Shown here piece after piece: positions 5,061-33,806 of a stretch of 64,000 bases of DNA. Numbering within the stretch: the first letter of the stretch is position 1; each line of letters starts with the position of its first letter. The stretch comes from an uncultured Pseudomonadota bacterium (GTDB lineage Bacteria > Desulfobacterota > Binatia > Binatales > Binataceae), in NCBI GenBank assembly GCA_963804355.1, contig CAWDQC010000029.1, positions 3,319-67,318 of the forward strand, read 5' to 3'. The position numbers and the translations under genes are program-made. The notes under the pieces are model-generated. The model saw only the letters and a program-made list of their open reading frames with translations, ran no database searches and was not told where the DNA came from.

Positions 5061-5204
5061 TTCGTATGATCTCGATCCGCCGGGCGGATCTTTCCGCTCG
5101 GCGGCATCGCCCGCCTCTTTCGGAACCAGACCAAAACGCGCAGGTTTACAGCCGCCCGCAAACCAGACACGATCAGCGACGCCGCATAGTTGCGTTGCTC
5201 ACCG

Positions 5205-6590
5205 ATGGATAATTCTCGCGTCAATGTGATCGGCGCCGGACTCGCCGGCAGCGAAGCCGCGTGGCAACTCGCCCGCCGCGGTATCGCCGTGCGGCTGTTC
5301 GAGATGCGTCCGGCTCGGACCACCGAAGCTCATCAGACGGGGCTGTTCGGCGAGCTCGTATGCTCGAACTCTTTGCGCAACTCATCGCTCGAAACCGCCG
5401 TGGGCGTGCTCAAGGAGGAGATGCGGCGGCTGGGTTCGCTGGTTATCGAGGCGGCGGATCGATCGCAGGTGCCGGCCGGCTCCGCGCTCGCCGTCGATCG
5501 CGACCAGTTCGCCGGTATCCTCACGCATACCCTCGAGACGCATCCGCTGGTCGAAGTCACGCGCGCGGAAGTCAGGCGCTGCCGCCGGCACTCACGATTA
5601 TCGCCAGCGGTCCGCTCACCGCCCGGCGCTCGGCGACGATCTCAACAATCTGATCGGCCCGCGCAATCTCTATTTTTACGACGCTATCGCGCCGATCGTG
5701 ACCGCCGATTCGGTCAACATGAAGGTCGCCTTCATAGCCTCGCGTTATGGCAAGGGCGGCGACGATTACATCAATTGCCCGATGGACGAGGGGCAATACG
5801 ACGCTTTCGTCGAGGCGGTGATCGCCGCGGATAAGGTCGCCGCTGCATCCCTTCGAAAGGCCGATCTATTTCGAAGGCTGCATGCCGATCGAGGAAATGG
5901 CGCGCCGCGGCCAGTCGCACCCTCGCGTTCGGCCCGATGCGCCCTGTGGGGCTGCCGATCCGCGCAGCGATCGCCATCCGTTCGCGGTCGTCCAGTTTCG
6001 CCAGGATGATCGCCAGGGCCGCCTCTTCAATATGGTAGGGTTCCAGACCAAGATGACTTATCCGGAACAGCGCCGCGTGTTGCGCATGATTCCCGGCCTG
6101 GAGCAGCGCGGAATTCGTCCGCCTCGGCTCGCTCCATCGCAACACTTTTATCGATTCGCCCCGCCTGCTCCATCCACGTTGCAGCTGCCGACCCGCGACG
6201 ATCTGTTGCTCGCGGGCCAGATGGTCGGGGTCGAAGGTTATGTCGAATCCGCGGCCGCGGGCCTGCTCGCCGCCATCAACGCCGCGCGGATCGTCGCCGG
6301 CTCCGGACTGATTACCGCCGCCTGAGACCGCGCTCGGCTCGCTGATCGCATATATCACCGATACCAGCCGTCGCGATTTCCAGCCGATGAACGCGAATTA
6401 CGGCCTGATGCCCGAACTGCGCGGCAACCTTCGCGGTCGCAACAAGAAAATCGAAATCGGCACGCCGCGCGCTTGCCGCAATCGACCATTGGATCGGGCC
6501 CAACCATATCGAGGCGCCGACCGCCGCTCCGGCACACTCCGGCGACCCTCTCCCTCACGCGCCCGGCGAATGATGGCGTGGCCAAAATGA
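5205..6590 (+). CDS. trmFO: Methylenetetrahydrofolate--tRNA-(uracil-5-)-methyltransferase TrmFO (Gid); at least 4 frameshifts
   Basis: [58 protein letters not shown] (FAD-binding fold). Further fragments are [93 protein letters not shown] and the C-terminal [16 protein letters not shown]. Confidence 0.8.
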
Positions 6591-20353: not shown

Positions 20354-20445
20354 GGAGAGGTGGCCGAGCCCGGTTTAAGGCGCACGCCTGGAGAGCGTGT
20401 AGACTCGAAAGGGTCTCGGGGGTTCAAATCCCCCCCTCTCCGCCA
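20354..20445 (+). tRNA. tRNA-Ser (anticodon GGA), 92 nt including CCA
   Basis: Acceptor stem GGAGAGG/CCTCTCC, D-arm GCC...GGC and anticodon stem CACGC/GCGTG with loop CTGGAGA. The long variable arm AGAC-TCGAAAGG-GTCT is typical of Ser tRNAs. T-arm GGGGG-TTCAAAT-CCCCC, discriminator G, 3' CCA. Confidence 0.9.
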
Positions 20446-21041: not shown

Positions 21042-22468
21042 CTATTTAGCCTGAGCGCTGATCGAAGACCAGCTCGCGGGGTCAGCGCCAGGTTGCTTCG
21101 CCTCGTACCTGTACGCCGCGGCCGGATGATTTTCCGGAAGGCGCGCGCGTCCCACGCCATAGAGTTTTTCACGTAAGGTTCCCGGTCGATACTCACGCTT
21201 GTAGACGCCGCGGCGTTGCAATTCAGGGACGACCAGCTCGACGAAATCTGAAAAACTCTCGGGTGTAACCGCGTATGCAAGGTTGAAACCGTCCACATCG
21301 GTTTCAGCGATCCACGACTGCAACTGGTCGGCGATCGAGGTGGGCGAGCCGACGACGATCGCACCCATCCCACCGATTCCGACGAACTCCGCGATCTCAC
21401 GTACGGTCCAGACCCGGTTCGGGTCACCGATCGTGAACGCCTCAACGGCCGAGTTGATTGCGTCGTTCTTGATATACTCAATCGGGTCGTCGAGGTCGAA
21501 GCGCGAGAAATCAACTCCGGTCCATCCGGAGAAGAGAGTCGAGAGCACCCTCGTGGCTTATGTAAGATCGGTACTCCGCGAATTTATCCTGCGCTTCGGC
21601 GTCGGTGCGTCCGGGAATCACCGTCATCAGATTGAAGATCAGGATCTCTCTAGGGTCGCGTCCATAGTGCAGCGCCCGTTGCCGAAGGTCGCGAACGCGT
21701 GGCGCAATGACCTCCTTTGAAGGCCCCAGCAGGAATACGCACTCGGCATGTTTGGCGGCAAACTCCCGGCCCATCGTCGAGGCTCCGGCCTGGTACAATA
21801 CGGGCGTTCGTTGCGGCGATGGTTCGGATAGATGTATCGCGTCGACGCGAAAGTTGGGGCCTTCGTGCAGGATCCGATGTACTTTGTCCGGGCGGCTGAA
21901 GATGCGATTCGCGCGATCGCGAACGACCGCGTCGTCTTCCCAGCTACCTTCCCATAGCTTGTACATCACTTCCATATACTCATTCGCCACTTCGTAGCGG
22001 GTGTCGTGAGCAGTCTGATTATCCAGACCGATACCTTTCGCAGCACTATTCAAGTAGCCGGTGACGATGTTCCATCCGGCGCGGCCGTCGGTGAGATGAT
22101 CGAGGGTCGACATGCGTCGCGCGAAGGGATACGGAGGTTCGAACGAGAGCGTGCAGGTCACGCCGAAACCGAGATTGCGCGTGACACGCGGCCATCGGGG
22201 GGATCACGAGTACCGGGTCATTCAATGGCAACTGAGCGGCGGTCTTCACCGCCGTATCCACGTTGCCGCCATAGACGTCGTAGACTCCGAGAACATCGGC
22301 AATAAAGAGTCCGTCGAACTTGCCGCTCTCGAGGATTTGCGCAAGGTCGATCCAATAGTCGAGTCGCGCATATTGATCGGCGCGGTCGCGCGGATGAGCC
22401 CAGAGGCCGGCCGATTGATGCACGACGCAGTTCATATCGAACGCATTGAGACGAATTTCTTTGCTCAT
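21042..22468 (-). CDS. FMN-dependent LLM-class monooxygenase, NtaA/SnaA/DszA family; at least 3 frameshifts; degraded paralog of the gene at 29626-31074
   Basis: Fragments MSKEIRLNAFDMNCVVHQSAGLWAHPRDRADQYARLDYWIDLAQILESGKFDGLFIADVLGVYDVYGG (N-terminal), CTLSFEPPYPFARRMSTLDHLTDGRAGWNIVTGYLNSAAKGIGLD...VYKLWEGSWEDDAVVRDR (middle) and LFSGWTGVDFSRFDLDDPI...VDGFNLAYAVTPESFSDFVELVVPELQRRGVYKREYRPGTLREKL (C-terminal). All are colinear with, and about 70% identical to, the intact paralog. Confidence 0.8.
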
Positions 22469-22490
22469 GATCTTTTCCGATTTAATCGCG

Positions 22491-23848
22491 TCAACGGAGA
22501 ATCTGCATCAATCCGGAGGGCGAACCGTAATTGACGCCATTCTGATATTCCTCAGGCGTCAGGCGATTGAGATAATGACCGCGATGCTGCGGATTGCCCC
22601 ACGGACTCCAGATGGTTGCGTGGGTATTTTGTAGATCCCAGTTGACCGCGGCAACCCCAACCCATACGTGGCCAAGGCTGGGAACGTCTCCGGTGGCGTT
22701 CTCATAAGCGGCGACCTTCCATAGTTTATGGTTAGCGTCGAAGAGATCGACCCAGTAGGGCAGCCAGAATTCCTTGTCGACCCAGAGCACGCGATTGCCG
22801 TAGCAATAGCCTTTGGTTTCGCTCTGAATACGATGCGCGTCGATCACGGAGGCATCGCGTACTTCCCACTTGCCCCAACTTGGTTTGGGAAAGCCCAGCG
22901 GCATGTCGTAGTTTCCCGGGAATTCTCCACTGGAGTTGTTGAGCTGCACCAGTTCGATTTGCTTGCGATCGCCTAGATAGTCAGCGTCGAAAATCGCGGT
23001 GCCGCCGTTGAAGCCGTTGATCTTCGCGTCATCGTTAGTCCATTCACTGCCGAACAGCGGCGCGCAACGAGCGGAGGCCGAAAGACGCAGTGAGCGACGG
23101 AGAGACGGCACGAATACATAGTTGTCGGGAACCTGATGCGCTTCCTGGTCTTTGTAGTAGAGCGCGAGAGTAGTGGTATAGCGCGCCTGCTCGGGAGTTT
23201 CTTCCATGAACCACTCGGTATACCAGGTGCCGGGAGCGTAAGTTTCGTCAGGTGGAAAGCCGGCGTCGGTATCCCATCCGCTCTGGCGATAGATAAGGTC
23301 GAAAGTATCCTGGGAGACGTTGCCGAAGCGATCGACGAACCAGATCGCGGAGGTGTTTTCAGGGCCCGCGCCAAAAATCGCCGGTGCATGCGCAAAGAAG
23401 ACATTGGCCAGGATCTTGAAGCCCTTTTGCGGTTCTTGCGGATCAGGAAAGACGAACACCGCCGTGGTAGTTGTCGATCTTGAAATGCCCGTTAGGCAAC
23501 ACCTCGACGCGGTCCTGTCCGCCGTATTTTTCGGTCGCCTCGATCCAGGTCTTGGGCAGATTCCCGATAGCGCGCGGGGCCGATGTCGATTTCGACATCC
23601 TGGGGCATCTGCCACTGGTAGCGTCCCTCGAACAGTTTGACCATGCCGAACGGCATGAAGGCCTTGTACTGCTGCCAGTTGGCGTTGGTGATCTTGGTTC
23701 CGATTGGCGGCGGGGGTCCCTGATTGGCGGTTTCCTTGAGGAAACTATCCAGTTCGCTGCGATCGGTGCTGGTCTGCGCCCACAGAAGCGACGGCAGCAG
23801 CAGGGCAAACAGCCCGATTCCGAAAAAGAGTCGTCCGAATTTACTCAC
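22491..23848 (-). CDS. DUF1329 domain secreted protein (LolA-like; usually partnered with DUF1302); one or two frameshifts near 23500-23620
   Basis: GTG start with RBS GAGGAGAAAC. Signal peptide MSKFGRLFFGIGLFALLLPSLLWAQ. ...ITNANWQQYKAFMPFGMVKLFEGRYQWQMPQDVEIDIGP is typical of DUF1329 N-termini. The body continues in ORF 22491-23615 (...YCYGNRVLWVDKEFWLPYWVDLFD...). Confidence 0.7.
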
Positions 23849-24002
23849 GTGTTTCTCCTCCTATGAATCAATTAAATCGATTGAACTAGTCGATAAATTA
23901 GCGATATCAGCCGACGCTCTGAAAGCGGAACAAAGCCGCGGTCTGGCCGGGAAACGTGCTGCCCTTTCCCTAGGACATGATGGCTGTAGGGCGGGAACCC
24001 TC

Positions 24003-24263
24003 TTATTTCTTCAAGAGGCGTGCGGCGGCGGAGATGTACGGTGTCAGCAGCGCGAATGCCAGGAACAACGCTGCTCGTACATCCCTGGCGGTACAAAGAA
24101 CCATGGCGCAAACGGACGATTCATCAGATTCGAGTTGCGACTTATCGCGAAGTGGGGGCAGACGAGTACAGGCCGAGAAAAGTGCGAGCGAGCCGTCTAT
24201 GGCGTCGGGCGTCATCTGGACCCTGTTTACGAGGCTGTCGTCTCGGTCGTCGAAGGAAGTCAT
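24003..24263 (-). CDS. Hypothetical small protein (87 aa) with a C-terminal hydrophobic segment, lying between rrf2 and the DUF1329 gene
   Basis: MTSFDDRDDSLVNRVQMTPDAIDGSLALFSACTRLPPLRDKSQLESDESSVCAMVLCTARDVRAALFLAFALLTPYISAAARLLKK. Third-position GC bias is consistent with coding. It has no recognisable homology, and the local region is lower-GC. Confidence 0.3.
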   Translation of the reverse strand: MTSFDDRDDSLVNRVQMTPDAIDGSLALFSACTRLPPLRDKSQLESDESSVCAMVLCTARDVRAALFLAFALLTPYISAAARLLKK

Positions 24264-24386
24264 AGTGCTCACCTGGCATATACTCGTTGAAGACGATTGA
24301 TTTAATCGATTAATAGAATAACTGTCAAGCGTCAATCGACATGCAGGTCGGAAAACGTCGAGAACCGAGCGGAGTGGCTGATTGTC

Positions 24387-24866
24387 AGGTCGGATGGAGA
24401 GGCGAATTAGATCGAGTAGGTGAGTGCGCGTGCGTCTTTGCGGATCGATCTCGGCAGCGGCCGAGAACCTCGGCAAAGGTAGTGGAATCGAGAATCGCGG
24501 CGGTAGCGTCTCTCACTTCTTTCATCAGCAGACGAATCCCGCAGGTCCGCTCGTCACGGCACTCCGCGCATTTCTCGTATGCGGTCTTGCTGACGCAGGG
24601 CAGGGGAGCCGGGGCCTTCGAGCATCCTGAGGACGTGTCCGACTGACAGCAGGTCGGGCGGTTTGCTCAGTATATAGCCGCCACCCTTTCCTTTTTTGCT
24701 ACGAAGTACACCCTGATTCTTGAGTTCGAGCAGAATCGAGTTCGAGGAAGCGCTTCGGAATATGCTCGCGCTCGGCAATTTCGGCGATAAGGAGGGGCCC
24801 ATTGCCGTACTCTTCGCTCAAGACGAGGAGCGCCTTGAGAGCATACTTGGATTTATGCGAAAGCAT
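24387..24866 (-). CDS. Rrf2 family transcriptional regulator (three-Cys, Fe-S cluster type, IscR/NsrR-like); about 2 frameshifts
   Basis: MLSHKSKYALKALLVLSEEYGNGPLL (HTH N-terminus), ILLELKNQGVLRSKKGKGGGYILSKPPDLLSVGHVLRMLEGP (ORF 24554-24802) and the C-terminal PCVSKTAYEKCAECRDERTCGIRLLMKEVRDATAAILDSTTFAEVL, which carries a CX6CX6C ligand set. Confidence 0.75.
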
Positions 24867-25001
24867 CCCGATGGTTTATATCGATTTTGTTGAGATAACG
24901 CACTACCTGAACCAATACCGACCAAGTCTGAGGATGGGCTTTGATAGGCCTGATCCTTAATGTTCGCGCTGGTATGGGAAGCGCAAGGAATCCGGCGAGA
25001 A

Positions 25002-25839
25002 TCACGCACGATAGAAGGGCTTATCGCCTGCGATAGTGACGCGGTTGCCGTAGCGATGGTGGGGATAGTAGTCCCAGAGCGCCTGGTGCTGCGCGCACGG
25101 TTGTCCCAGAATGCGATCGAATTCGGCCGCCACTGGAAACGGCAGTTGAAATGTCGGGGTTTTCGATATGCCGGAAGAGCATCTGGAGGATGCTCGTCGT
25201 TCTCCGAATTGGCAAGTTGCGCGATGCGCGTGGTGAACATGCGGTTGACGAACAGGGCTTTGCGGCCGGTCTCCGGATGGGTCCGCACCACCGGGTGTTC
25301 CGCCGCGGGGAAATTCGGCGGTGTTCCCGCCGGACGCGGTGTTCATAGTTGCGCGGCAGGCCATCGTGAATGGCGGTGAGGCCGCAGAGAAACGCCTTGA
25401 TCGGTCCGATAGCGCCTCGTATGCCGCGTACATACTGGCGAAGAGCGTGTCGCCTCCAGCGCGATGGCACTTCCTTGATGTAAAAAATCGAACCCATGGG
25501 CGGCTCGGCATCGCAGGAGACGTCCGAATGCCAGTGTTAGCCGGCGATACGCCTGGAATTTTCATCCGTCTTGATAACGACGATTTCCGGATGGCCTTCG
25601 AGAACCCCGGCGGCGCGTTCGGATGGATGTGGAGTCGGCCGAAGCGGCGGCCGAATGACTTATGCTGGTCGGGGGTCAGCGTCTTGATCCCTGAAGAAGA
25701 TCACCAGGTTGTCGAGCAAGGCGTCGTGGATTTCAGCAAAAACGCCGGCGCTCAATGGAATTGAGAGATCGACTCCATCGAGTTCCGCGCCGATACGCGG
25801 TGTCAGCTTGCGCACCGAAAAGGAACTTTGCGTCATTGC
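25002..25839 (-). CDS. tauD: TauD/TfdA family alpha-ketoglutarate-dependent dioxygenase (taurine dioxygenase-like); at least 4 frameshifts
   Basis: N-terminal MTQSSFSVRKLTPRIGAELDGVDLSIPLSAGV (reverse-strand reading of 25741-25839). Central ...GSIFYIKEVP... and ...HRAGGDTLFASMYAAYEALSDRSRRF (TauD motif GGDTxFAxMxAAYEALS) sit in different frames. Confidence 0.7.
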
Positions 25840-25856: not shown

Positions 25857-26966
25857 TCAGGCCGTCGCGCGCAATCGCGCACCGATACTGGTCTCGCGGC
25901 GGGCGACCTCGGCGCGCACCAATGGAATCAGCTCGCGCCCGTAATCGATTACATCCTCGAGCGGATCGAAACCGCGAATGAGGAAGGTAGTCACTCCGAG
26001 TTTATAATATTCGATGAGTGCTTCGGCCACCTGCTCTGGTGTACCGACCAATGCGGTGGTATTGCCGCGCGCGCCGGTCGCTTCGGCCACCGCGGTCCAT
26101 AGGCGACGATCGCGAATCGCACCTTTTTCGGCGGCACGGAGCAGCCGTTGCGATCCGACGTTCTGCGGCTTTCGACTTGCGGGGCCGAGGGCAGCCTGCC
26201 CGCGCGAAGCTTGAACCGTGGCGAGAATCCGGCCCGCTCTTTCCCAGGCCTGCTCTTCCGTCACGGCCAGAATCGGACGCAGCGAAAGGCTGAACCTCAA
26301 CTCGCGTCCGTGACGCGCCGCCGCCTCGCGTACCCTGCGAATCGTCTCGGCCGCATCGGCGAGCGGCTCGCCCCACAATGCGTAGATGTCAGCGTGCCTG
26401 GCCGCCACTTCGATCGCGGCATCGGAGGCGCCGCCAAAATATATCGGCAGATGCGGCTGCTGTACCGGCTTCACATCGGAATACGCCTTGGTGAACTTGT
26501 AGTACTTGCCCGCGTGGTCAATCGGCCGCGCACTCGTCCATATGCGCTTCAGAATCTCGACATACTCATCGGTGCGCGCGTAACGCTCGTCGTGCTCGAG
26601 GTAATCGCCGTGTTTTCTCTGCTCGCCGTCATCGCCGCCGGAGATAATGTGGACCGCGAGTCGTCCCTGGGAAAATTGGTCGAGCGTCGCGAGCTTTCGC
26701 GCCGCCAGTGTGGGCGCAACGAAACCGGGGCGATGCGCCAGCATAAAGCCCAGTCGCTCGGTCACGAAAGCCGCGTAGGAAGTTACGATGAAGCCGTCGG
26801 CGCCGTTGCCGAAGTAGCCAATTAGGATACGGTCGAAGTCGGCATCCTCATGCGCCTGGACGAAACGGCGAACGTAGTCGCGGTCAATCGCCGGCGGTTT
26901 CGGTGGATGAATCTCGGAGACGACCTGCGTTCCAATCATGCCGATGAACTCGACTGCCATCGCCAT
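25857..26966 (-). CDS. ssuD: LLM-class flavin-dependent monooxygenase, SsuD-like alkanesulfonate monooxygenase
   Basis: Intact 369 aa, colinear with SsuD: ...HRPGFVAPTLAARKLATLDQFSQGRLAVHIISGGDDGEQRKHGDYLEHDERYARTDEYVEILKRIW...PIYFGGASDAAIEVAARHADIYALWGEP...TALVGTPEQVAEALIEYYKLGVTTFLIRGFDPLED. Confidence 0.85.
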   Translation of the reverse strand: MAMAVEFIGMIGTQVVSEIHPPKPPAIDRDYVRRFVQAHEDADFDRILIGYFGNGADGFIVTSYAAFVTERLGFMLAHRPGFVAPTLAARKLATLDQFSQGRLAVHIISGGDDGEQRKHGDYLEHDERYARTDEYVEILKRIWTSARPIDHAGKYYKFTKAYSDVKPVQQPHLPIYFGGASDAAIEVAARHADIYALWGEPLADAAETIRRVREAAARHGRELRFSLSLRPILAVTEEQAWERAGRILATVQASRGQAALGPASRKPQNVGSQRLLRAAEKGAIRDRRLWTAVAEATGARGNTTALVGTPEQVAEALIEYYKLGVTTFLIRGFDPLEDVIDYGRELIPLVRAEVARRETSIGARLRATA

Positions 26967-27077: not shown

Positions 27078-27934
27078 TCAGGCCAGAAGACCAATGCACG
27101 AACCTCGACGCTTTCCCGGGGGGCCGCATCGGGCCGCTGCTGGATCTTCGAAAGCCGTGTGAGCGGTGAAGCGCGCCCGCCCATCTTCCTTCGAATCGTA
27201 GCACTTGAGCAGAATCGCTTCGTTGCGCTGCAACAGCGGGAAATAGTACCAGCGGTGATTCGGATTGAATTTGAAGCGATAGGTCTCGCCGACTTTATCG
27301 CGATAGATGAGGTCGGATGCGACGAAGTCGACCGGATCGATCGAACCGGCGTCGCATACCGCGAGCGGCGTGGATTCGATCGGTCCGCGAATCGGACGCC
27401 ATACGTTGATCTCGGCGAAGCGATGGCGCAGGCGTTCCTCGGCTTCCGCTGGTGGCAGATGGTCGGTCACGCGCCGCGGACCGGATTTCGCCGTGTAGTC
27501 ATTGTGAACCACTTTGCCATACTCGCGAGCGTTCTTTTCGCCGCGTTGCGCGAGCGGAAACGTTGCTATCTGATGGTCGAGAAGATCACCACTTTCGAGG
27601 CGCCGGTCGCTTCCTTGAGCATGCGTTCGACCTCGGGATAGTAAACCTGCTTCACCTCTTCGGGGTCGTAGAAATCCTTGACGGAAGTCTCGTGGCGCAC
27701 CAATTCGAAGCCCTGCTTGTCGAGCGAGAGTTCGTCGACGACGTCGCGAGCATTCCTGACCGGCACCGGTTGCTGGGCGAATTTACCGGTCTGCCGCGGC
27801 ACACCAGTCGGCGGCTCGTAGGCATAGTAGACGGGTTTTTCCGTTGAATCGGCGAGGTAATTGAGCGACGCCTCGACGATGTTGTGGGTGCGATTGTCGA
27901 CGCCCAGCGGTTGATTTTCATTGAGTCTGTCCAT
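27078..27934 (-). CDS. CmcJ/NvfI family oxidoreductase (7-alpha-cephem-methoxylase P8-chain-related); one frameshift near 27520-27565
   Basis: N-terminal MDRLNENQPLGVDNRTHNIVEASLNYLADSTEKPVYYAYEPPTGVPRQTGKF...VKDFYDPEEVKQVYYPEVERMLKEATGASKVVIFS. C-terminal ...FAEINVWRPIRGPIESTPLAVCDAGSIDPVDFVASDLIYRDKVGETYRFKFNPNHRWYYFPLLQRNEAILLKCYDSKEDGRARFTAHTAFEDP. Confidence 0.7.
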
Positions 27935-28058
27935 CGAAAAGCTCCTTAATTTGCCGCCACACTACATCAATCGAATTCTCGATTGATTTACTTGACTAAT
28001 AACGCATCAAATCTTTCGGTGTCAATGCACGGCGTCAGAGAATCCCCTGCGGTGACGA

Positions 28059-29393
28059 CTATTCGGTGCGAGCCGGGAAGAAGCGGTTCTGCGGACGCGG
28101 CAGGCCGAGATTGTCTCGAAGCGTTTTGCCCTCGTATTCACGCCGAAACAGACCCCGTCGCTGCAATTCCGGTACGACGCGATCGACAAAGTCGTCGAGT
28201 CCCGCCGGCAGATAGGGGAACATCACGTTGAAGCCGTCGCAGGCCTCGGTGAAAAGCCATTCTTCCATTTGATCGGCGATCGTCCCGGCGTACCGACAAA
28301 CGCGAGGCCGGCATAGCCTCCGACCCGCTGCGCCAGTTGGCGCACAGTCAGATTGTCGCGAGCGGCGAGCTCGAGAACCGTTCCCGCCCGCTCTTGCTCG
28401 CATTGCTCTCGGGAATTGGAGGCAAGGGACGGTCGGGATCAGACGGGAAACATCGTGGCCGAGTGCGATTGATAGCGACGCGATCGCGCTGTCGTAATGG
28501 ACGAGGCTGTCGAGGCGAGCCCGCTTTTCGCGTGCTTCGGCGACGGTCTCCCCAACGACGACGAAGGCGCCCGGCAAGACCTTCAGATGGTTGGGGTCGC
28601 GGCCAAGTTGAGGCATCCGCGATTTCACATCACGGTAGAAGGATTGAGCGTACTGGATACTGCCCCCTGCGCCGAAAATGACCTCGGCGGTCTCGGCGGC
28701 AAGCTGGCGTCCTTCTTCGGAGGCGCCGGCCTGAACGATTACCGGCCATCCCTGGACCGGACGCGAGATATTAAGCGGACCGCGCACTTTGAGGTGCTCG
28801 CCTTCGTGATTCAGGACATGGAGGCGAGCCGGATCGAAGTAGACGCCAGCTTCGACATCGCGAACGAACGCATCGTCGGCCCAGCTATCCCAGAGTCCGG
28901 TGACCACGTCGAAGAATTCGCGCGCGCGATGATAGCGTTTGGCGTGCTCAACGTGTTCTTCCAGCCCAAAATTCATCGCCTCGTGCGGATTACCGGAGGT
29001 GACCACGTTCCATCCGGCGCGGCCGCCGCTCAGATGATCGAGCGAGGCGAATTTGCGAGCGATATGGTAAGGCTCGTTGTAGGTGGTCGACGCTGTAGCG
29101 ATGAGCCCGAGATGATCCGTGACGACGGCGAGCGCCGGGAGCAGCACGAGCGGATCGAATGAGGTGACGGTGGCGCTGCGTTTTAGCGCCTGCATCGGCA
29201 TGTTGAGCACGGCCAGATGATCGGCCATGAAGAAGGCGTCGAACCTGCCGCGCTCCAGGGTCTGAGCGAGCCGCTTGAGATGATCGAAATTGAAGTTCGC
29301 GTCCGGCCAGGAGCCAGGATACCGCCAGGCTGCGGTATGAATGCTGACGGGACGCATGAAGGCACCAAGGTGCAATTTACGTAAGCTGTCCAT
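28059..29393 (-). CDS. FMN-dependent LLM-class monooxygenase, NtaA/SnaA/DszA family (second paralog); compensated double frameshift near 28380-28440
   Basis: MDSLRKLHLGAFMRPVSIHTAAWRYPGSWPDANFNFDHLKRLAQTLERGRFDAFFMADHLAVLNMP...NEPYHIARKFASLDHLSGGRAGWNVVTSGNPHEAMNFGLEEH...DGFNVMFPYLPAGLDDFVDRVVPELQRRGLFRREYEGKTLRDNLGL. Confidence 0.85.
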   Translation of the reverse strand: MDSLRKLHLGAFMRPVSIHTAAWRYPGSWPDANFNFDHLKRLAQTLERGRFDAFFMADHLAVLNMPMQALKRSATVTSFDPLVLLPALAVVTDHLGLIATASTTYNEPYHIARKFASLDHLSGGRAGWNVVTSGNPHEAMNFGLEEHVEHAKRYHRAREFFDVVTGLWDSWADDAFVRDVEAGVYFDPARLHVLNHEGEHLKVRGPLNISRPVQGWPVIVQAGASEEGRQLAAETAEVIFGAGGSIQYAQSFYRDVKSRMPQLGRDPNHLKVLPGAFVVVGETVAEAREKRARLDSLVHYDSAIASLSIALGHDVSRLIPTVPCLQFPRAMRARAGGNGSRARRSRQSDCAPTGAAGRRLCRPRVCRYAGTIADQMEEWLFTEACDGFNVMFPYLPAGLDDFVDRVVPELQRRGLFRREYEGKTLRDNLGLPRPQNRFFPARTE

Positions 29394-29625
29394 GTCCTTA
29401 ACGTCTGTCCATCCGGTACTCGACGACTCGGTCGGGAGTCAAACGCCGTGAGGTTCTGCGAAAGATTCGCGAATGATTGCCGAAATTCTTGACTAGGGCG
29501 CCTCGTTATCGATAATAGTCTATCAAATCAATCGGATAATTGAATAGAGGCCGACCAGGATTATCTACTGATAAGCCTGCGAGCCTTGACCTGCCGCGGG
29601 AAAGCGCCATAACCAGACTGACGGT

Positions 29626-31074
29626 TTGAACAATATGACCAAAGAGATTCGTCTGAACGCATTCGATATGAACTGCGCGGGGCATCTGTCGGCGGGTCTT
29701 TGGACTCATCCGCGCGATCGGTCAACCAAATACAAAGACCTCGAATACTGGACCGATTTGGCGAAACTGCTGGAACGCGGCAAGTTCGACGGTCTTTTTC
29801 TCGCCGACGTGCTCGGGGTTTACGACGTTTATCGTGGCTCGAATGAAGCCGCGTTGAGGCAGTGCACCCAGGTGCCAGTGAATGATCCGGTACTGGTGAT
29901 ACCGGCGATGGCGACGGTCACCGAGAATCTGGCATTCGGCGTTACCTGCACGCTCTCTTTCGAGCCGCCGTATCCGTTCGCGCGGCGAATGTCGACGCTG
30001 GATCATCTGACCAAGGGGCGGGTGGCCTGGAACGTCGTCACCGGATACCTGAACAGCGCGGCCAAGGGAGTCGGCCTCGACGCGCAGACTGCACATGATC
30101 TCCGCTATGACATTGCCGACGAATACATGGAAGTCGTTTACAAGCTGTGGGAGGGAAGTTGGGAGGACGACGCCGTGGTGCGGGATCGCGAGCAAGGCAT
30201 TTTCGCGCATCCGGAGAAGGTTCATAAGATTCATCACAACGGCGCGAATTATCGCGTCGACGCGATCCATTTGTGCGAACCGTCACCGCAGCGAACGCCG
30301 CTGCTCTACCAGGCGGGCGCCTCGCCGAGAGGTCGCGAGTTTGCCGGAACGCATGCCGAGTGTGTCTTCCTCGGTGGACTGAGCAAGAAAACCGTTGCCT
30401 CGATTGTCGCGGATATTCGGCGTCGCACGGCGCTGCATGGACGCAATCCCGCGGATGTTTTGATGTTCATGGGAATAACCGTGATCGTTGGACGGACCGA
30501 GGCAGAGGCGCGCGCCAAGCATGAAGAATACAAGCGTTACGTAAGCACGGAAGGCGCGCTGGCCTTGTTCTCGGGATGGACCGGAATCGATTTCTCGGAG
30601 TATGCGTTGGACGAACCTCTGCGCCACGTCAAAAACGACGCGGTCAATTCCATTGTCGACGCGTTGACTCGCGCAGACCGCCACAAGGCGTGGACGGTGC
30701 GGGACGTCGTCGAATACGGGGGACTGGGCGGGCCGTCGCCGGTGGTCGTTGGATCTCCGACGCAAGTTGCGGATGAGCTGCAAGCCTGGATGGACGAAAC
30801 CGATATCGACGGTTTCAATCTCGCTTACGTGGTTACGCCCGAGACTTTTTCAGATTTCGTCGAGCTCGTCGTCCCCGAGCTGCAACGCCGCGGCGTTTAT
30901 AAGTCTGAGTATCGCCCCGGTTCGATCCGCGAGAAGCTCTTTGGTCCTGGACGCGCGCGGCTATCCGACGACCATCCGGGGGCGAAGTTTCGCTTTCGCC
31001 CGTCCGCTGAGATAAGCGATGCGGTGCCGGCGGAATCACTAGCTTCCGGGAAGAGCGCCGAACGAGCGGTTTAG
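29626..31074 (+). CDS. FMN-dependent LLM-class monooxygenase, NtaA/SnaA/DszA family (intact paralog of 21042-22468)
   Basis: Intact 482 aa. MTKEIRLNAFDMNCAGHLSAGLWTHPRDRSTKYKDLEYWTDLAKLLERGKFDGLFLADVLGVYDVY...TCTLSFEPPYPFARRMSTLDHLTKGRVAWNVVTGY...DGFNLAYVVTPETFSDFVELVVPELQRRGVYKSEYRPGSIREKL. Confidence 0.9.
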   Translation: MNNMTKEIRLNAFDMNCAGHLSAGLWTHPRDRSTKYKDLEYWTDLAKLLERGKFDGLFLADVLGVYDVYRGSNEAALRQCTQVPVNDPVLVIPAMATVTENLAFGVTCTLSFEPPYPFARRMSTLDHLTKGRVAWNVVTGYLNSAAKGVGLDAQTAHDLRYDIADEYMEVVYKLWEGSWEDDAVVRDREQGIFAHPEKVHKIHHNGANYRVDAIHLCEPSPQRTPLLYQAGASPRGREFAGTHAECVFLGGLSKKTVASIVADIRRRTALHGRNPADVLMFMGITVIVGRTEAEARAKHEEYKRYVSTEGALALFSGWTGIDFSEYALDEPLRHVKNDAVNSIVDALTRADRHKAWTVRDVVEYGGLGGPSPVVVGSPTQVADELQAWMDETDIDGFNLAYVVTPETFSDFVELVVPELQRRGVYKSEYRPGSIREKLFGPGRARLSDDHPGAKFRFRPSAEISDAVPAESLASGKSAERAV

Positions 31075-31086
31075 GGAAGAATATCT

Positions 31087-31656
31087 ATGGCGGGTTTGGT
31101 TGCGATTATGGGGAGCGTCACGCCCCCGGGACGATCGCTCAAGGCGATGGAATTCGTGGTGCGATGCGCGGGCGAGGAATCGCCGGGAATAGACGCTCGC
31201 CTGATCAACCTCAGAGACTATCGCATCGCTTTCGCCGACGGCCGCCAGCCGAACGAATTTGGCGATGATACAGAGAAGGTCGTCGAAGTTATCGGCGAAG
31301 CGGCAACGGTTATTTTCGCGAGCCCGGTGTATCGAGGGTCGTTCACCGGATCACTCAAGAATTTGATCGACCACTTGCCGGTCGAGGCCCTGATGGGCAA
31401 GCCGTGCGGGATAATTGCGATCGGCGCGACCGAGCATCATTTTCTCGGCGTCGATTGGCATCTGCGCGACGTCCTGGGATGGTTCGGCGCGCTTGTGGCG
31501 CCGACCAGCGCGTATCTGTCCGCGAAGGATTTCGCCGATGGTGAGCCGAATGACGACGCGCGCGCCCAGTTACGAGCATTGGTCTCGACGGTAATCAAGC
31601 TTCGTGCGGCCGCGGGTGCGGTCGGGCCGATTCCGCTGGCCGCCCGGCGTCGTTGA
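31087..31656 (+). CDS. NADPH-dependent FMN reductase (SsuE/MsuE-like partner of the two-component flavin monooxygenases)
   Basis: MAGLVAIMGSVTPPGRSLKAMEFVVRCAGEE...ATVIFASPVYRGSFTGSLKNLIDHLPVEALMGKPCGIIAIGATEHHFLGVDWHLRDVLGWFGALVAP. Confidence 0.85.
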   Translation: MAGLVAIMGSVTPPGRSLKAMEFVVRCAGEESPGIDARLINLRDYRIAFADGRQPNEFGDDTEKVVEVIGEAATVIFASPVYRGSFTGSLKNLIDHLPVEALMGKPCGIIAIGATEHHFLGVDWHLRDVLGWFGALVAPTSAYLSAKDFADGEPNDDARAQLRALVSTVIKLRAAAGAVGPIPLAARRR

Positions 31657-31667
31657 GAGTGAGAATC

Positions 31668-32330
31668 TAGGGAAGAGTCGCGAGCCGCTGCGCGAATTCC
31701 AGCAGGTTGCTCGCGACAAGTCGGGTGGAATATCCCAAGGGTCGAAAACGATCCGAGGATTGCGCCTGATCCACGCGACCTTAAGACCCGCCACTTTGGC
31801 GCCGATCACGTCGAACGGATTGCTCGATACCAACCAGGTGCTGGCCGCCGGACGATTCAATCGGCTGGTCAAGGCGGCGTAGACGCGCGGATCGGGTTTG
31901 AAGGTCCTGAGCGCGTCGACACTGACAATCCCGCTCAGCGAGGCCAGCAGGCCCGCGCTATCGAGCAGCTTGCGAAGCGTGGTCTCGACACCGTTGGAAA
32001 AGGCCACCAGCGTATGGCCGGAGGCTTTGAGCTGCGTTAGTCCGGCAGCCGCGTCGGGGTAGGCGCCGAGAGTCTGGTAGCGATCCACCAGTCGCACTTC
32101 TTCATCCGGCGAGATGGTCAGATTCGCGTTGGCGAGCACGAATCGCAACGCCTGTTGCGTGCATACGTCGAAGTTCTCATAAAGACCCATCGCGGTGCGC
32201 CGGAAGGTATATTCGAGTTGTTTCGCGCGCCACTGTTCGGCGATGCGATCGGCAGAATCGCCGACGAACGGCCGCAAATGGTCGCTCATCCCAAGCGGAT
32301 CGACCAGGGTCGTAGACGTCGAGACCAATT
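31668..32330 (-). CDS. HAD-superfamily hydrolase, L-2-haloacid dehalogenase type II-like; about 2 frameshifts (N-terminal and C-terminal)
   Basis: ...LVDPLGMSDHLRPFVGDSADRIAEQWRAKQLEYTFRRTAMGLYENFDVCTQQALRFVLANANLTISPDEEVRLVDRYQTLGAYPDAAAGLTQLKASGHTLVAFSNG...TFKPDPRVYAALTSRLNRPAASTWLVSSNPFDVIGAKVAGLKVAWIRR. The true C-terminus DLSRVASNLLEFAQRLATLP sits in a shifted frame, with its stop near 31668. Confidence 0.75.
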
Positions 32331-32606
32331 CCCGCACTCATATGAGCTCATATTAAGGATCGACCTCGGATAGAGAATCAGTCGCTCGCAGCTCAGCAGA
32401 TGGACTTTGCAAGGCGGCGCGCACAGGCGAGCCGACTTTCTGATCGGCCAGGACACGATGGAGAGAGACTGCGCGGGGACTGTCGGCGTTGGTGGATTAT
32501 GACGAGGCGAAATAGCTATGATTCGTGTGCCAGCCATTGGCTGGAAACGCGGCAGACCGGCGCAGCGTCGCGGTCGGTCTGAACGCGAAGCTACGAGGAA
32601 GTCCCG

Positions 32607-33806
32607 ATGGAACTTGTCGATCTCTCCAACGCCCGTTCGTTCGCAAGCGGTTTTCCGCACGAATTCTTCAGCTGGTTGCGCCATAACGAGCCGGTGTGGT
32701 GGCACGAACCGACCGAATTCACCCCTAACAACGTGGGCTTCTGGGTCGTCAGCCGTTACGACGATGTGGTTGCGGTGTTCAAGGACGCGGAGACCTTCTC
32801 CTCGGAGCTGGGCGGGACGCAGATCTACGACGGCAAGGGCATGGGTTATCAGTTGAATCAGACTGACGACCCGAAGCATCGCCGGCTGCGCGCGCTGGTC
32901 AACAAGGGTTTCACTCCACGAATGATCGGGAGGCTCGAAGACGAGCTGCGCAAACGCACCAAGCGCATCCTGGACGACGTGCCATCGTCGGAGACCTTCA
33001 ACTTCGTGCCCGTAGTGGCGCGTGAACTCCCGCTCCAGACGATCTGCAGTGTTTTGGGAGTGCCGCAGGAAGATCGGACGGAAATCATAGAAATCGTTGA
33101 TCTAGCGGTCGGCGCCGGTGACGGCACTGTGATGTCGCCGCAATACCTGAAACGTTTGAGCGCCTATGCCGATACCCTGGTTCAGCGCAAACGCAGCGAG
33201 CCGGCGGATGACATACTTTCTGTCATTGTTCACGCCCAGTTGGATGACGGGTCACCGCAACTCAACAACCAGGAGTTGCGTGCGTTCTTTAATCTGCTCT
33301 TTCCCGCGGGAGCGGAGACCACTCGCGGTTCGATCGCCGGGGGACTGCTGGCTCTGATCGAAAACCCTGAAGAGCACCAGCGGTTGCGTGAAGATCCCAA
33401 GCTGATGCGGACCGCGATCGAAGAGATCGTACGATGGACCTCTCCATCGATCTACAAACGGCGCACGGCGACTTGCGATACGGCGCTGAGCGGGCAAGCG
33501 ATCGCCAAGGGTCAAAAGGTGACGGTCTGGGAGATGTCGGCTAATCGCGACGAGGACACCTTCGAAAATCCGTTTCGCTTCGATGTGGGCCGCGATCCCA
33601 ACTATCATGTCGGCTTCGGTCTCGGCACGCATTTCTGCCTCGGAGCAAATCTCGCGAGGCTGGAGATCCGCGTGATGTTCGAAGAGATCCTCGAGCGCTT
33701 CGAAAACTTCGAGCTGACCGGACCACTAGCCTGGACCAACAACAATCGGCTGCTGGGGCTGAAGCAATTGCCGGTTCGTGCGTTCCCCCGCCAGAGCGTC
33801 AGCTGA
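32607..33806 (+). CDS. Cytochrome P450
   Basis: Intact 399 aa. AGAETTRGSIAG (I-helix A/GGxxT), EEIVRW (ExxR) and FGLGTHFCLGANLARLE (heme-thiolate FxxGxHxCxG loop). Confidence 0.9.
   Translation: MELVDLSNARSFASGFPHEFFSWLRHNEPVWWHEPTEFTPNNVGFWVVSRYDDVVAVFKDAETFSSELGGTQIYDGKGMGYQLNQTDDPKHRRLRALVNKGFTPRMIGRLEDELRKRTKRILDDVPSSETFNFVPVVARELPLQTICSVLGVPQEDRTEIIEIVDLAVGAGDGTVMSPQYLKRLSAYADTLVQRKRSEPADDILSVIVHAQLDDGSPQLNNQELRAFFNLLFPAGAETTRGSIAGGLLALIENPEEHQRLREDPKLMRTAIEEIVRWTSPSIYKRRTATCDTALSGQAIAKGQKVTVWEMSANRDEDTFENPFRFDVGRDPNYHVGFGLGTHFCLGANLARLEIRVMFEEILERFENFELTGPLAWTNNNRLLGLKQLPVRAFPRQSVS

What the first reader, a model, noticed from the sequence alone, without database searches (positions are those of the whole stretch)
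23860..24895. Shared AT-rich palindromic motif TT(A/T)AATCGATT immediately upstream of rrf2, a small ORF and the DUF1329 gene: candidate Rrf2 operator set
Three copies of an ATCGATT-centred motif occur within 1 kb of a 63%-GC region, each 10-40 bp upstream of a minus-strand start codon. They are TTTATATCGATTTTG (24876-24890, before rrf2), the perfect palindrome TTAATCGATTAA (24301-24312, before the 87-aa ORF) and TTAAATCGATTGAA (23872-23885, before the DUF1329 gene). Rrf2 regulators bind AT-rich inverted repeats, and this one carries three Cys (Fe-S type). The arrangement suggests autoregulation plus control of the downstream DUF1329 and LLM-monooxygenase genes, possibly linking Fe-S or redox status to sulfonate or xenobiotic oxidation.
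Basis: seen in the sequence. Interest (0 to 1): 0.55.

Follow-up and report, generated by a model that had tools for sequence, protein, structure and literature searches.

The report
Rrf2 sulfur-regulator operators, half-sites spotted
The short ATCGAT-centred motifs are real, but each is only half of a conserved 25-bp binding site for an uncharacterised four-cysteine Rrf2 regulator that probably switches off sulfur-scavenging genes in this soil bacterium (Binatia) and, in variant form, in many other phyla.

Summary
The three motifs exist, one base off the stated coordinates for two of them. Two of the three (before the small ORF and before DUF1329) are highly non-random. The third (before rrf2) is weak by score but conserved in relatives.

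Each is one arm of a 25-bp, 9-7-9 inverted repeat: TTA[A/G]TC[G/T]A[G/T]-N7-ATCGAtTAA. A weight matrix built only from other organisms' DNA finds four strong sites in the 64-kb window (27-30 bits). Two are new, at 27975-27999 and 29515-29539. All four lie in promoter regions of a cluster of flavin monooxygenase (LLM), TauD, CmcJ-like, FMN-reductase and DUF1329 genes, and three follow a TTGACA/TTGACT -35 box.

The same architecture flanks orthologous rrf2 genes across Binatia, Acidobacteriota, Gemmatimonadota, Bacteroidota and Myxococcota. It is about 150-fold denser next to rrf2 than elsewhere in those loci. There the neighbouring genes encode sulfate ABC transport, cysK/cysE or PAPS reductase.

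The clade has an invariant C-X9-C-X2-C-X6-C motif. It passes no CymR, IscR, NsrR or RirA model threshold.

Best reading: a CymR-like (by role) repressor of sulfur acquisition. Binding itself is untested. The broken genes in the window are most likely assembly errors.

The parts
23873..23897 (-).
   Evidence: PWM-A 34.4 bits and PWM-C 28.9 bits. It lies in a fully conserved block in L140/L141/L144/L145 while the flanking intergenic DNA varies. The same element lies upstream of 12 DUF1329 orthologues.
24289..24313 (-).
   Evidence: 28.1 and 27.4 bits. Conserved block in L140, L141 and L144-146. Homologous promoter-operator units occur in L084:2865, L087:3025 and L090:133.
24323..24328 (-). -35 box TTGACA, 9 nt upstream of the operator; a TTAAAT -10-like hexamer lies 17 nt downstream, inside the operator
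   Evidence: Read from the sequence. Conserved in L140 and L144-146. The consensus scanner did not call this promoter.
24864..24888 (-). It overlaps a TATAAA -10-like hexamer (24875-24880) and the rrf2 ATG.
   Evidence: Only 14.4 bits, not significant alone. It is nonetheless the fifth-ranked distinct locus in the window. The architecture [A/T]CGA-TATAAT-N3-TCG-ATG is kept in L140, L144, L084, L098 and L148.
27975..27999 (-). New operator upstream of the CmcJ/NvfI-like oxidoreductase gene: TTAGTCAAG-TAAATCA-ATCGAGAAT. A TTGACA -35 box lies at 28020-28025.
   Evidence: 23.6 and 29.0 bits. Sequence read. An additional 12-nt inverted repeat lies at 27963-27990.
29515..29539 (+). New operator in the divergent LLM/LLM intergenic region: ATAGTCTAT-CAAATCA-ATCGGATAA. 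It overlaps the -10 of the promoter TTGACT(29489-29494)-16-GATAAT(29511-29516).
   Evidence: 27.5 and 30.4 bits. The promoter was called by the scanner with 10 of 12 matches. An orthologous site of 31.2 bits sits in the same divergent region of L144.
24407..24866 (-). rrf2 gene (152 aa when intact), broken by frameshifts in the window. Cys motif PCVSKTAYEKCAECRDERTC.
   Evidence: Pfam Rrf2 matches on two frames. Reconstruction. Intact 152-aa orthologues at 93-99% identity. Only the NCBIfam superfamily model passes its threshold.
24003..24263 (-). 86-aa ORF of unknown function, first gene after the regulated promoter
   Evidence: No Pfam or NCBIfam match. Five homologues at 77-97% identity, 85-86 aa, all in the same gene order. 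Weak purifying selection, 12 synonymous to 17 non-synonymous codon changes. Absent in L098 and replaced by an unrelated ORF in L084.
22491..23848 (-). DUF1329/LolA-like protein gene with a signal-peptide-like N-terminus, two frameshifts in the window
   Evidence: Pfam PF07044 and PF17131. Intact 451-454-aa orthologues.
21042..22468 (-). NtaA/DmoA-family FMN-dependent (LLM) monooxygenase, two frameshifts in the window
   Evidence: Pfam Bac_luciferase. NCBIfam TIGR03860, 299.7 bits on one fragment. The DUF1329-LLM pair is conserved in most loci of L081-L134.
25002..25836 (-). TauD-family dioxygenase gene, heavily frameshifted in the window, immediately upstream of rrf2
   Evidence: Pfam TauD on fragments. 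The intact 276-aa orthologue in L140 scores 291 bits against the taurine dioxygenase model, below its 313-bit cutoff.
25857..26966 (-). SsuD-like LLM monooxygenase (369 aa, intact)
   Evidence: Pfam Bac_luciferase. The alkanesulfonate monooxygenase model gives 244.6 bits, below its 518.2-bit cutoff.
27078..27934 (-). CmcJ/NvfI-family oxidoreductase gene (one frameshift), first gene after the 27975-27999 operator
   Evidence: NCBIfam NF041278 on both fragments, 107.7 and 181.9 bits. Intact 289-aa orthologue in L084.
28059..29393 (-). NtaA/DmoA-family LLM monooxygenase, divergent from the 29.5-kb operator
   Evidence: TIGR03860, 528.9 bits.
29626..31656 (+). NtaA/DmoA-family LLM monooxygenase (29626-31074) plus MsuE/SsuE-like FMN reductase (31087-31656), downstream of the 29.5-kb promoter and operator
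   Evidence: TIGR03860, 567.6 bits. FMN_red Pfam match and MsuE model at 106 bits, below cutoff.

Best explanation
The three ATCGAT-centred motifs are arms of 25-bp operators (9-7-9 inverted repeat TTA[A/G]TC[G/T]A[G/T]-N7-ATCGAtTAA). They are bound by the dimeric winged-helix Rrf2 protein encoded at 24407-24866.

The window holds four strong operators and one weak one. They sit over the spacer, -10 and transcription-start region of sigma-70-type promoters that drive:
1. the 86-aa ORF, DUF1329 and an LLM monooxygenase;
2. the CmcJ-like gene, SsuD-like LLM, TauD and probably rrf2;
3. a divergent pair of NtaA/DmoA-type LLM monooxygenases with an FMN reductase.

Bound regulator would block RNA polymerase, so the protein acts as a repressor of organosulfur-scavenging genes and is released when sulfur is scarce.

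The regulator belongs to a clade found in many phyla, marked by an invariant C-X9-C-X2-C-X6-C motif. Elsewhere it sits next to sulfate transport and cysteine biosynthesis genes, with the variant operator TTAGTCTAT-N7-ATAGACTAA.

Shown here: the motif, its extent, its non-randomness, its conservation, its linkage to rrf2, its overlap with promoter hexamers, and the sulfur-gene contexts. Inferred: that Rrf2 binds it, that it represses, and that the signal is sulfur status sensed through the four Cys (Fe-S cluster or thiol chemistry).
For: 1. Motif extent. Unbiased EM on 12 DUF1329-orthologue upstream regions gives TTAATCGAGTAAATCAATCGATTAAAT. EM on 13 Binatia rrf2 upstream regions gives (TCT)TTAGTCTAGCCACCCTATCGACTA, which has the same architecture.

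2. Non-randomness. Matrices trained without window sequence find four window sites of 27-34 bits. Random-window maximum was 22.2 bits, and 27 bits or more arose in 1 of 500 AT-rich sets. No other locus in the remaining ~58 kb reaches 13 bits.

3. Footprinting. All three reader sites lie in invariant blocks within otherwise diverged intergenic DNA of L140-L146.

4. Linkage to rrf2. In 80 rrf2 loci from many phyla, 62 of 74 hits of at least 18 bits lie within -150/+200 nt of rrf2 (2.23 per kb against 0.015 per kb). 45 loci carry at least one. Only 11 of those upstream sites were used in training.

5. Protein-DNA co-variation. Proteins with IPKRFL...LRSK have TCGA half-site cores. Proteins with IPKKFL...LQSK have TCTA cores.

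6. Promoter overlap. TTGACA or TTGACT lies 8-20 nt upstream of three window sites and of many Binatia-lineage sites.

7. Sulfur theme. Sulfate ABC binding proteins score above 490 bits downstream of the orthologues. cysK, cysE, PAPS reductase and sulfite reductase surround an 85%-identical orthologue that has a 33.6-bit site. The window cluster encodes NtaA/DmoA, SsuD-like, TauD and MsuE-like proteins.
Against: - No binding or expression data exist; everything is comparative.
- The rrf2-proximal site is weak (14.4 bits, reached by 26% of AT-rich random sets) and overlaps a -10-like hexamer and the start codon. Its conservation may reflect promoter or leaderless-start constraints rather than an operator.
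- The co-variation rests on a single lineage, so it is in effect one evolutionary event.
- The 7-bp spacer is itself conserved (TAAATCA) and not symmetric, which a simple symmetric dimer site does not explain.
- The site before DUF1329 has no recognisable -35 in the window.
- The consensus promoter scanner called only one of the proposed promoters.
- Close Binatia MAG orthologues at 70-74% identity are not syntenic with DUF1329/LLM. Orthologue versus paralogue status within a genome is therefore unresolved.
Confidence: 0.72

Rival explanations
1. The 25-bp element is the operator of a different sulfur-responsive regulator encoded elsewhere (for example a LysR-type CysB/Cbl/SsuR-like or other factor). 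That factor would control rrf2 along with the sulfur genes, making rrf2 merely a regulon member.
For: Sites occur upstream of DUF1329 orthologues on contigs where no rrf2 is adjacent, so the factor acts in trans. No binding data exist. Sulfur regulons in Proteobacteria are run by LysR proteins (established knowledge).
Against: - The motif tracks the rrf2 gene itself on both of its flanks across at least five phyla with otherwise different neighbours.
- The half-site core changes together with residues of the Rrf2 DNA-binding domain.
- The 9-7-9 inverted repeat of 25 bp has typical Rrf2 operator geometry and lacks the T-N11-A LysR signature.
- No other regulator gene is conserved in these loci.
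Confidence: 0.12
2. The motifs are chance or compositional features of AT-rich promoter DNA (UP-element or -10-like sequence) with no dedicated binding protein.
For: The 12-bp palindrome alone is not remarkable. The rrf2-proximal site is within the random score range. The sites are in the most AT-rich parts of the window.
Against: - Four sites of at least 27 bits were found with a matrix trained on other organisms, against 1 of 500 AT-rich random sets reaching that score once.
- The blocks are invariant in diverged intergenic regions.
- The motif is enriched about 150-fold next to rrf2 across phyla.
Confidence: 0.03
3. The element works at the RNA level, as a transcribed hairpin in the 5' leader that acts as an attenuator, a processing site or a translational control element for the sulfur genes.
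For: The element is an inverted repeat and part of it lies downstream of the predicted -10, so it would be partly transcribed. The site before DUF1329 lies inside a possible polycistronic transcript.
Against: - No Rfam family matches these regions even at E<=1.
- The arms are AT-rich 8-9-mers around a 7-nt spacer, which gives a weak hairpin.
- At three sites the left arm lies in the promoter spacer/-10 and would not be transcribed.
- The arms vary by simple substitution without compensatory pairing, for example ATCGTCTTC opposite TTAATCGAT.
Confidence: 0.04
4. The Rrf2 binds these sites but acts as an activator, or as a dual regulator like IscR, responding to Fe-S or redox status rather than sulfur supply.
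For: Four invariant Cys are present. The nearest solved structure is an IscR-like protein, 4CIC. IscR is known to both activate and repress (established knowledge). Peroxiredoxin genes follow the rrf2 orthologue in two Bacteroidota loci.
Against: - Operator positions over the spacer, -10 and start region fit repression.
- No isc or suf genes are found in any of the contexts examined.
- The recurrent neighbours are sulfate transport, cysteine synthesis and organosulfur oxygenases.
- The IscR model score is far below its cutoff.
Confidence: 0.09

Closest known systems
CymR, the Rrf2-family master repressor of cysteine and sulfur metabolism in Bacillus subtilis and Staphylococcus aureus
   Same: - Same protein family; CymR is the best-scoring named NCBIfam equivalog (80 bits) and the second-best PDB match, 2Y75.
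- Same kind of regulon: sulfur uptake, cysteine synthesis, and sulfonate/organosulfur utilisation.
- Same logic: a repressor operator of about 25-27 bp overlapping promoters.
   Different: - It scores far below the CymR cutoff (80 against 195 bits).
- It carries four invariant Cys (C-X9-C-X2-C-X6-C) in the segment that is gapped out in the CymR alignment.
- CymR is known to need CysK for DNA binding (established knowledge; not testable here).
- The operator sequence is different: there is no match to the recalled CymR box.
- It is distributed in Gram-negative phyla rather than Firmicutes.
IscR, including the Thermincola potens IscR-like protein (PDB 4CIC)
   Same: - Closest solved structure by sequence (82 bits).
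- Cys-rich segment at the equivalent position.
- 25-bp inverted-repeat operators, and autoregulation of its own promoter.
   Different: - The IscR models give 61 and 48 bits against cutoffs of 207 and 275.
- The Cys spacing is not C-X5-C-X5-C-X2-H.
- No isc or suf genes are nearby.
- No match to the recalled type-1 consensus. The order of the GACT/TAT blocks is in fact inverted relative to it.
[quoted passage not shown]
   Same: It is a prior bioinformatic prediction that an Rrf2 protein regulates sulfate assimilation genes. It is quoted for a Rhodococcus protein induced on organosulfur (PMC8557817).
   Different: It is only an annotation label. In the searchable literature I found no published operator, regulon or biochemistry for the clade described here. 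I did not test whether the Rhodococcus protein belongs to the same Cys4 clade.
CysB/Cbl/SsuR LysR-type control of ssu/tau sulfur-starvation genes in Proteobacteria
   Same: The same target gene classes (SsuD-like and TauD oxygenases, FMN reductase, sulfate ABC transporter) under sulfur-status control.
   Different: An unrelated protein family, acting as activators rather than promoter-occluding repressors, with a different DNA motif architecture.

Membership tests
Rrf2-family transcription factor with its operator | Winged helix-turn-helix Rrf2 domain protein encoded at the locus | tested here: met
   PF02082 matches on the two window fragments. The intact orthologue gives 122 bits on Pfam and 110 bits on TIGR00738 against a cutoff of 73.3.
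Rrf2-family transcription factor with its operator | Operator is an inverted repeat of roughly 19-29 bp suited to a homodimer | tested here: met
   A 9-7-9 element of 25 bp was recovered by unbiased EM and by the pan-phylum scan. L018, L148 and L098 are near-perfect palindromes.
Rrf2-family transcription factor with its operator | Operator overlaps the regulated promoter | tested here: inconclusive
   -35-like TTGACA/TTGACT boxes lie at fixed short distances upstream of three window sites and many related sites. No transcription starts are mapped, and the scanner called only one promoter.
Rrf2-family transcription factor with its operator | Direct sequence-specific binding of the protein to the site | not testable with these tools
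   Needs EMSA, footprinting or DAP-seq.
CymR (cysteine metabolism repressor) | Reaches the NCBIfam equivalog score (NF047409, 195 bits) | tested here: not met
   80.2 bits.
CymR (cysteine metabolism repressor) | Regulon of sulfur uptake, cysteine synthesis and sulfonate utilisation genes | tested here: met
   Sites lie upstream of LLM/TauD/FMN-reductase clusters, sulfate ABC transporter genes and cysK-cysE. This is by sequence prediction only.
CymR (cysteine metabolism repressor) | CymR box TAAWNCN2ANTWNAN3TAWGGAATT (consensus recalled from memory) | tested here: not met
   No match with up to 3 mismatches in the window.
CymR (cysteine metabolism repressor) | No Fe-S ligand set; activity depends on a complex with CysK | tested here: not met
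   Four invariant Cys in all 46 clade members examined. CysK dependence is not testable here.
IscR | Reaches equivalog scores (TIGR02010 at 207.55 bits; NF008110 at 275 bits) | tested here: not met
   60.9 and 47.7 bits.
IscR | Cluster ligands C-X5-C-X5-C-X2-H, with linkage to isc/suf genes | tested here: not met
   The spacing is C-X9-C-X2-C-X6-C. No isc or suf genes appear in any context examined.
IscR | Type-1 site ATASYYGACTRWWWYAGTCRRSTAT (recalled from memory) | tested here: not met
   No match with up to 3 mismatches.
NsrR / RirA | Reaches equivalog scores (182 and 193 bits) | tested here: not met
   32.9 and 40.6 bits.

The most novel reading that the evidence does not exclude
This Cys4 Rrf2 clade is the so far unnamed master regulator of sulfate and organosulfur acquisition in Binatia, Acidobacteriota, Gemmatimonadota, Bacteroidota, Myxococcota and others. 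It would sense sulfur supply directly through a C-X9-C-X2-C-X6-C site (an Fe-S cluster or thiol/persulfide chemistry). That mechanism would differ from both CymR-CysK and LysR-type CysB. A traceable specificity switch (K to R in the recognition helix and Q to R next to the wing, matched by TCTA to TCGA in the half-site) would have occurred in one Binatia lineage.
Probability: 0.3. Interest if true: 0.65.

Novelty: new member of a known kind. Interest (0 to 1): 0.45.

Why it matters
Sulfur-assimilation control is understood mainly for Proteobacteria (CysB/Cbl) and Firmicutes (CymR). For the abundant soil phyla seen here it is essentially unannotated, and every homologue is labelled only 'Rrf2 family'.

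The analysis gives a concrete and testable model:
- a defined 25-bp operator;
- five sites and three to four operons in this window;
- a pan-phylum variant of the operator;
- a diagnostic four-Cys signature;
- a candidate pair of specificity-determining residues.

This would allow regulon prediction for organosulfur scavenging (sulfonate-, sulfone- and taurine-type oxygenases) in uncultured soil and peat bacteria. It also offers a new Rrf2 sensor type for biochemistry.

Tried and rejected
1. The exact patterns AATCGATT, ATCGAT and TTWWATCGATT are enriched, but the extra copies lie in coding DNA. These patterns missed the two further operators.

2. Synteny with the closest genome-collection Rrf2 loci: none have DUF1329 or LLM, apart from unrelated LLMs in Labrys. 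A metagenome scan with DUF1329 was needed instead.

3. The consensus promoter/terminator scan of 23700-25100 found nothing.

4. The small ORF has no Pfam or NCBIfam family and is not homologous to the 84-aa ORF at the same position in L084. No FMN-reductase remnant exists in the window's rrf2-DUF1329 gap.

5. Pseudogene decay of this locus: rejected as the main explanation. An unrelated TrmFO-like gene at 5190-6500 is also frameshifted. A 97.8%-identical contig, L140, carries every gene intact.

6. An RNA element: no Rfam match.

7. The recalled CymR box and IscR type-1 consensus: no matches.

8. Literature searches for a characterised member of the clade found only a SEED-style annotation label and unrelated Rrf2 proteins.

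9. Structure prediction was not run, because the tool reports no coordinates from which Cys-Cys distances could be read.
Full report
**Observation.** The three strings are in the sequence.
- TTTATATCGATTTTG is at 24875-24889 and TTAATCGATTAA at 24302-24313, each one base off the stated coordinates.
- TTAAATCGATTGAA is at 23872-23885, as stated.
- They lie upstream of the minus-strand starts of rrf2 (ATG 24866), an 86-aa ORF (ATG 24263) and a DUF1329 gene (GTG 23848).
- Pfam confirms Rrf2, DUF1329/LolA-like, a luciferase-like monooxygenase and TauD.
- The span is 54% GC and the window about 58%, not 63%.
- AATCGATT occurs 7 times against 2.4 expected. TTWWATCGATT has five exact copies, and the two outside the finding lie in coding DNA.

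**State of the sequence.** rrf2, DUF1329, the LLM gene and TauD are each split over two or three frames.
- This is not local gene decay. An unrelated TrmFO-like gene at 5190-6500 is broken in the same way.
- A metagenome contig 97.8% identical over 8.3 kb (L140) has the same gene order with every gene intact: LLM 369 aa, TauD 276, Rrf2 152, small ORF 86, DUF1329 451, LLM 474.
- I treat the frameshifts as assembly errors. The indels are unevenly spread, with many in TauD and none in the neighbouring LLM, and I cannot explain that.

**Organism and regulator.**
- The reconstructed Rrf2 finds its best genome matches (70-74% identity) in Candidatus Binataceae/Binatus MAGs. Relatives at 50-66% identity occur in Acidobacteriota, Gemmatimonadota, Bacteroidota, Myxococcota, Methylomirabilota, Geobacterales and Alphaproteobacteria.
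- Only the Rrf2 superfamily model passes its threshold. CymR (80 bits against a cutoff of 195), IscR, RirA, SUF-regulator and NsrR models all fail.
- The nearest solved structures are 4CIC and CymR 2Y75.
- All 46 clade members I aligned keep four cysteines spaced C-X9-C-X2-C-X6-C.
- Public sources name every close homologue only 'Rrf2 family'.

**What the motif really is.** Upstream of 12 non-redundant DUF1329 orthologues (82-90% identity), an unbiased EM search recovers TTAATCGAGTAAATCAATCGATTAAAT. Upstream of 13 Binatia rrf2 genes it recovers TTTAGTCTAGCCACCCTATCGACTA.
- These are the same architecture: TTA[A/G]TC[G/T]A[G/T], seven bases, then ATCGA(t)TAA. That is a 9-7-9 inverted repeat of 25 bp.
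It looks palindromic because its core, TCGA, is self-complementary.
- In L098 the symmetry extends to 37 bp: AATCAATTAATCGA-N9-TCGATTAATTGATT.

**Statistics.** All matrices were trained without window sequence.

| Window site (29-mer) | Strand | Score (bits) | Location |
|---|---|---|---|
| 29514-29542 | + | 30.4 | divergent LLM/LLM region (new) |
| 27972-28000 | - | 29.0 | upstream of CmcJ-like gene (new) |

- The next-best unrelated locus in the window scores 12.9 bits.
- Random windows of the same composition peaked at 22.2 bits.
- With a null built from the AT-rich parts of the window, a hit of 27 bits or more arose in 1 of 500 sets. A score of 14.4 bits arose in 129 of 500.
- That site's architecture, [A/T]CGA-TATAAT-N3-TCG-ATG, recurs before the rrf2 start in L140, L144, L084, L098 and L148. 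There it cannot be told apart from a conserved -10 box and a probably leaderless start.

**Footprinting.** In alignments of the three intergenic regions from the window, L140-L143 (about 97% identical) and L144-L146 (about 77% identity in the small ORF), each site lies in an invariant block. The surrounding intergenic DNA has diverged.

**Link to the Rrf2 protein.**
- Scanning 1.2 Mb of fetched loci shows that the motif tracks the rrf2 gene itself. In the pan-phylum form it reads ATTAGTCTAyTAAATCnATAGACTAAAT.
- In 80 rrf2 loci, 62 of 74 hits of at least 18 bits lie within 150 nt upstream or 200 nt downstream of rrf2. That is 2.23 per kb against 0.015 per kb elsewhere, and 45 loci have at least one. 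Only 11 upstream sites were used in training.
- Proteins with IPKRFL...LRSK (the window lineage, L084, L098, L140, L144, L148, L149) go with TCGA cores. Proteins with IPKKFL...LQSK go with TCTA cores. This is suggestive, but it rests on one lineage.

**Promoter relationship.**
- TTGACA lies 9 nt upstream of the small-ORF site (24323-24328).
- TTGACA (28020-28025) lies upstream of the 27.9-kb site.
- The scanner calls TTGACT-16-GATAAT at 29489-29516, overlapping the left end of the 29.5-kb site.
- Many Binatia-lineage sites have TTGAC 8-12 nt upstream.
- This geometry fits promoter occlusion by a repressor. No transcription starts are known.

**Regulated functions.**

In the window:

| Genes | Coordinates |
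|---|---|
| NtaA/DmoA-family LLM monooxygenases | 21042-22468, 28059-29393, 29626-31074 |
| SsuD-like LLM | 25857-26966 |
| TauD | 25002-25836 |
| CmcJ/NvfI-like oxidoreductase | 27078-27934 |
| MsuE/SsuE-like FMN reductase | 31087-31656 |
| Secreted DUF1329 protein | 22491-23848 |

In other organisms:
- The gene after rrf2 and its site is a sulfate ABC binding protein (above 490 bits), a porin, a DASS permease or a peroxiredoxin.
- An 85%-identical orthologue is followed by a 33.6-bit perfect palindrome and then cysK and cysE. PAPS reductase, sulfite reductase and cysG are nearby.
- The common theme is sulfur acquisition.

**The small ORF.** It has five homologues (77-97% identity, 85-86 aa), always in the same position, and one in-frame codon indel. 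Purifying selection is weak: 12 synonymous to 17 non-synonymous changed codons, against 33:2 for rrf2. It is absent in L098 and replaced by an unrelated ORF plus an FMN reductase in L084. It is probably a fast-evolving small protein of unknown role. It matters here mainly as the first cistron after a regulated promoter.

**Comparison with known systems.**
- The system works like CymR: an Rrf2 repressor of sulfur uptake and organosulfur use.
- It is not a CymR by model score, by Cys content or by operator sequence.
- It is not IscR, NsrR or RirA.
- I found no paper that characterises this clade. [quoted passage not shown] Other searches found nothing relevant.
- No Rfam family matches the regions.

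**Verdict.** The finding is a real regulatory element, correctly attributed in outline and mis-defined in detail. It is a new, uncharacterised member of a known kind: an Rrf2 repressor with inverted-repeat operators.
- Confidence that these are operators of this Rrf2: about 0.7.
- That it represses in response to sulfur status: plausible, and inferred.
- That the four Cys bind an Fe-S cluster: open.

Noticed in passing
window 5190-6500, 21042-25836, 27078-27934: Many genes are split by single-base indels. Against the 97.8%-identical contig L140 there are 37 gap openings in 8.3 kb. They are very unevenly spread: about 14 in the 0.83-kb TauD gene and none in the adjacent 1.1-kb LLM gene at 25857-26966. 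This is probably assembly noise, but the clustering is unexplained.
   Followed up: partly
Rrf2 clade, e.g. L098:3359-3817, L140:2431-2889: Four cysteines spaced C-X9-C-X2-C-X6-C (PCVSxTAYxxCxxCxDExxCGIR) are invariant in 46 members from at least six phyla. The spacing differs from the C-X5-C-X5-C of IscR and NsrR.
   Followed up: partly
L084, L098, L140, L144, L148, L149 versus L001-L080: Half-site core TCGA goes with IPKRFL...LRSK in the protein, and TCTA goes with IPKKFL...LQSK. These are candidate specificity-determining residues, but the evidence comes from a single lineage.
   Followed up: partly
L098:3940-3990; window 27963-27990: The symmetry extends beyond 25 bp. L098 has a 37-bp palindrome with four tetramer boxes, TCAA-8-TCGA-13-TCGA-8-TTGA. 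The 27.9-kb window site has a second, overlapping 12-nt inverted repeat with a 4-nt gap. This may indicate two overlapping dimer sites or cooperative binding.
   Followed up: no
operator spacer, all sites: The 7-bp spacer is itself conserved and asymmetric (TAAATCA; A at spacer position 3 and C at position 6 even in the rrf2-promoter set). A purely symmetric dimer site would not predict this.
   Followed up: no
window 20354-20445 (+): A tRNA-Ser (GGA) gene lies between a large membrane-protein gene and an SH3-domain gene, just downstream of the LLM operon.
   Followed up: yes
L003:6487, L005:6485, L009:6486; window 24864-24888: Several sites abut or overlap an ATG with no Shine-Dalgarno sequence (rrf2 itself, and the first ORF after rrf2 in Binatia MAGs). 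This suggests leaderless or near-leaderless transcripts in this regulon.
   Followed up: no
L147 and L148 (same ENA sample ERZ25039548): An identical 152-aa Rrf2 (P0030) sits on two long contigs in different contexts. One is next to amidohydrolase and GST genes without a strong site. The other is next to cysK/cysE with a 33.6-bit site. This could be a duplication or two strains.
   Followed up: no
L068:4585-5217, L072:6524-7186: In two Bacteroidota loci the gene directly after rrf2 and its operator is a 1-Cys-type peroxiredoxin rather than a sulfur transporter. This hints at a redox branch of the regulon.
   Followed up: no
window 31570-33806: A HAD-family hydrolase and a cytochrome P450 gene follow the LLM/FMN-reductase pair. 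No operator-like site was found near them.
   Followed up: no
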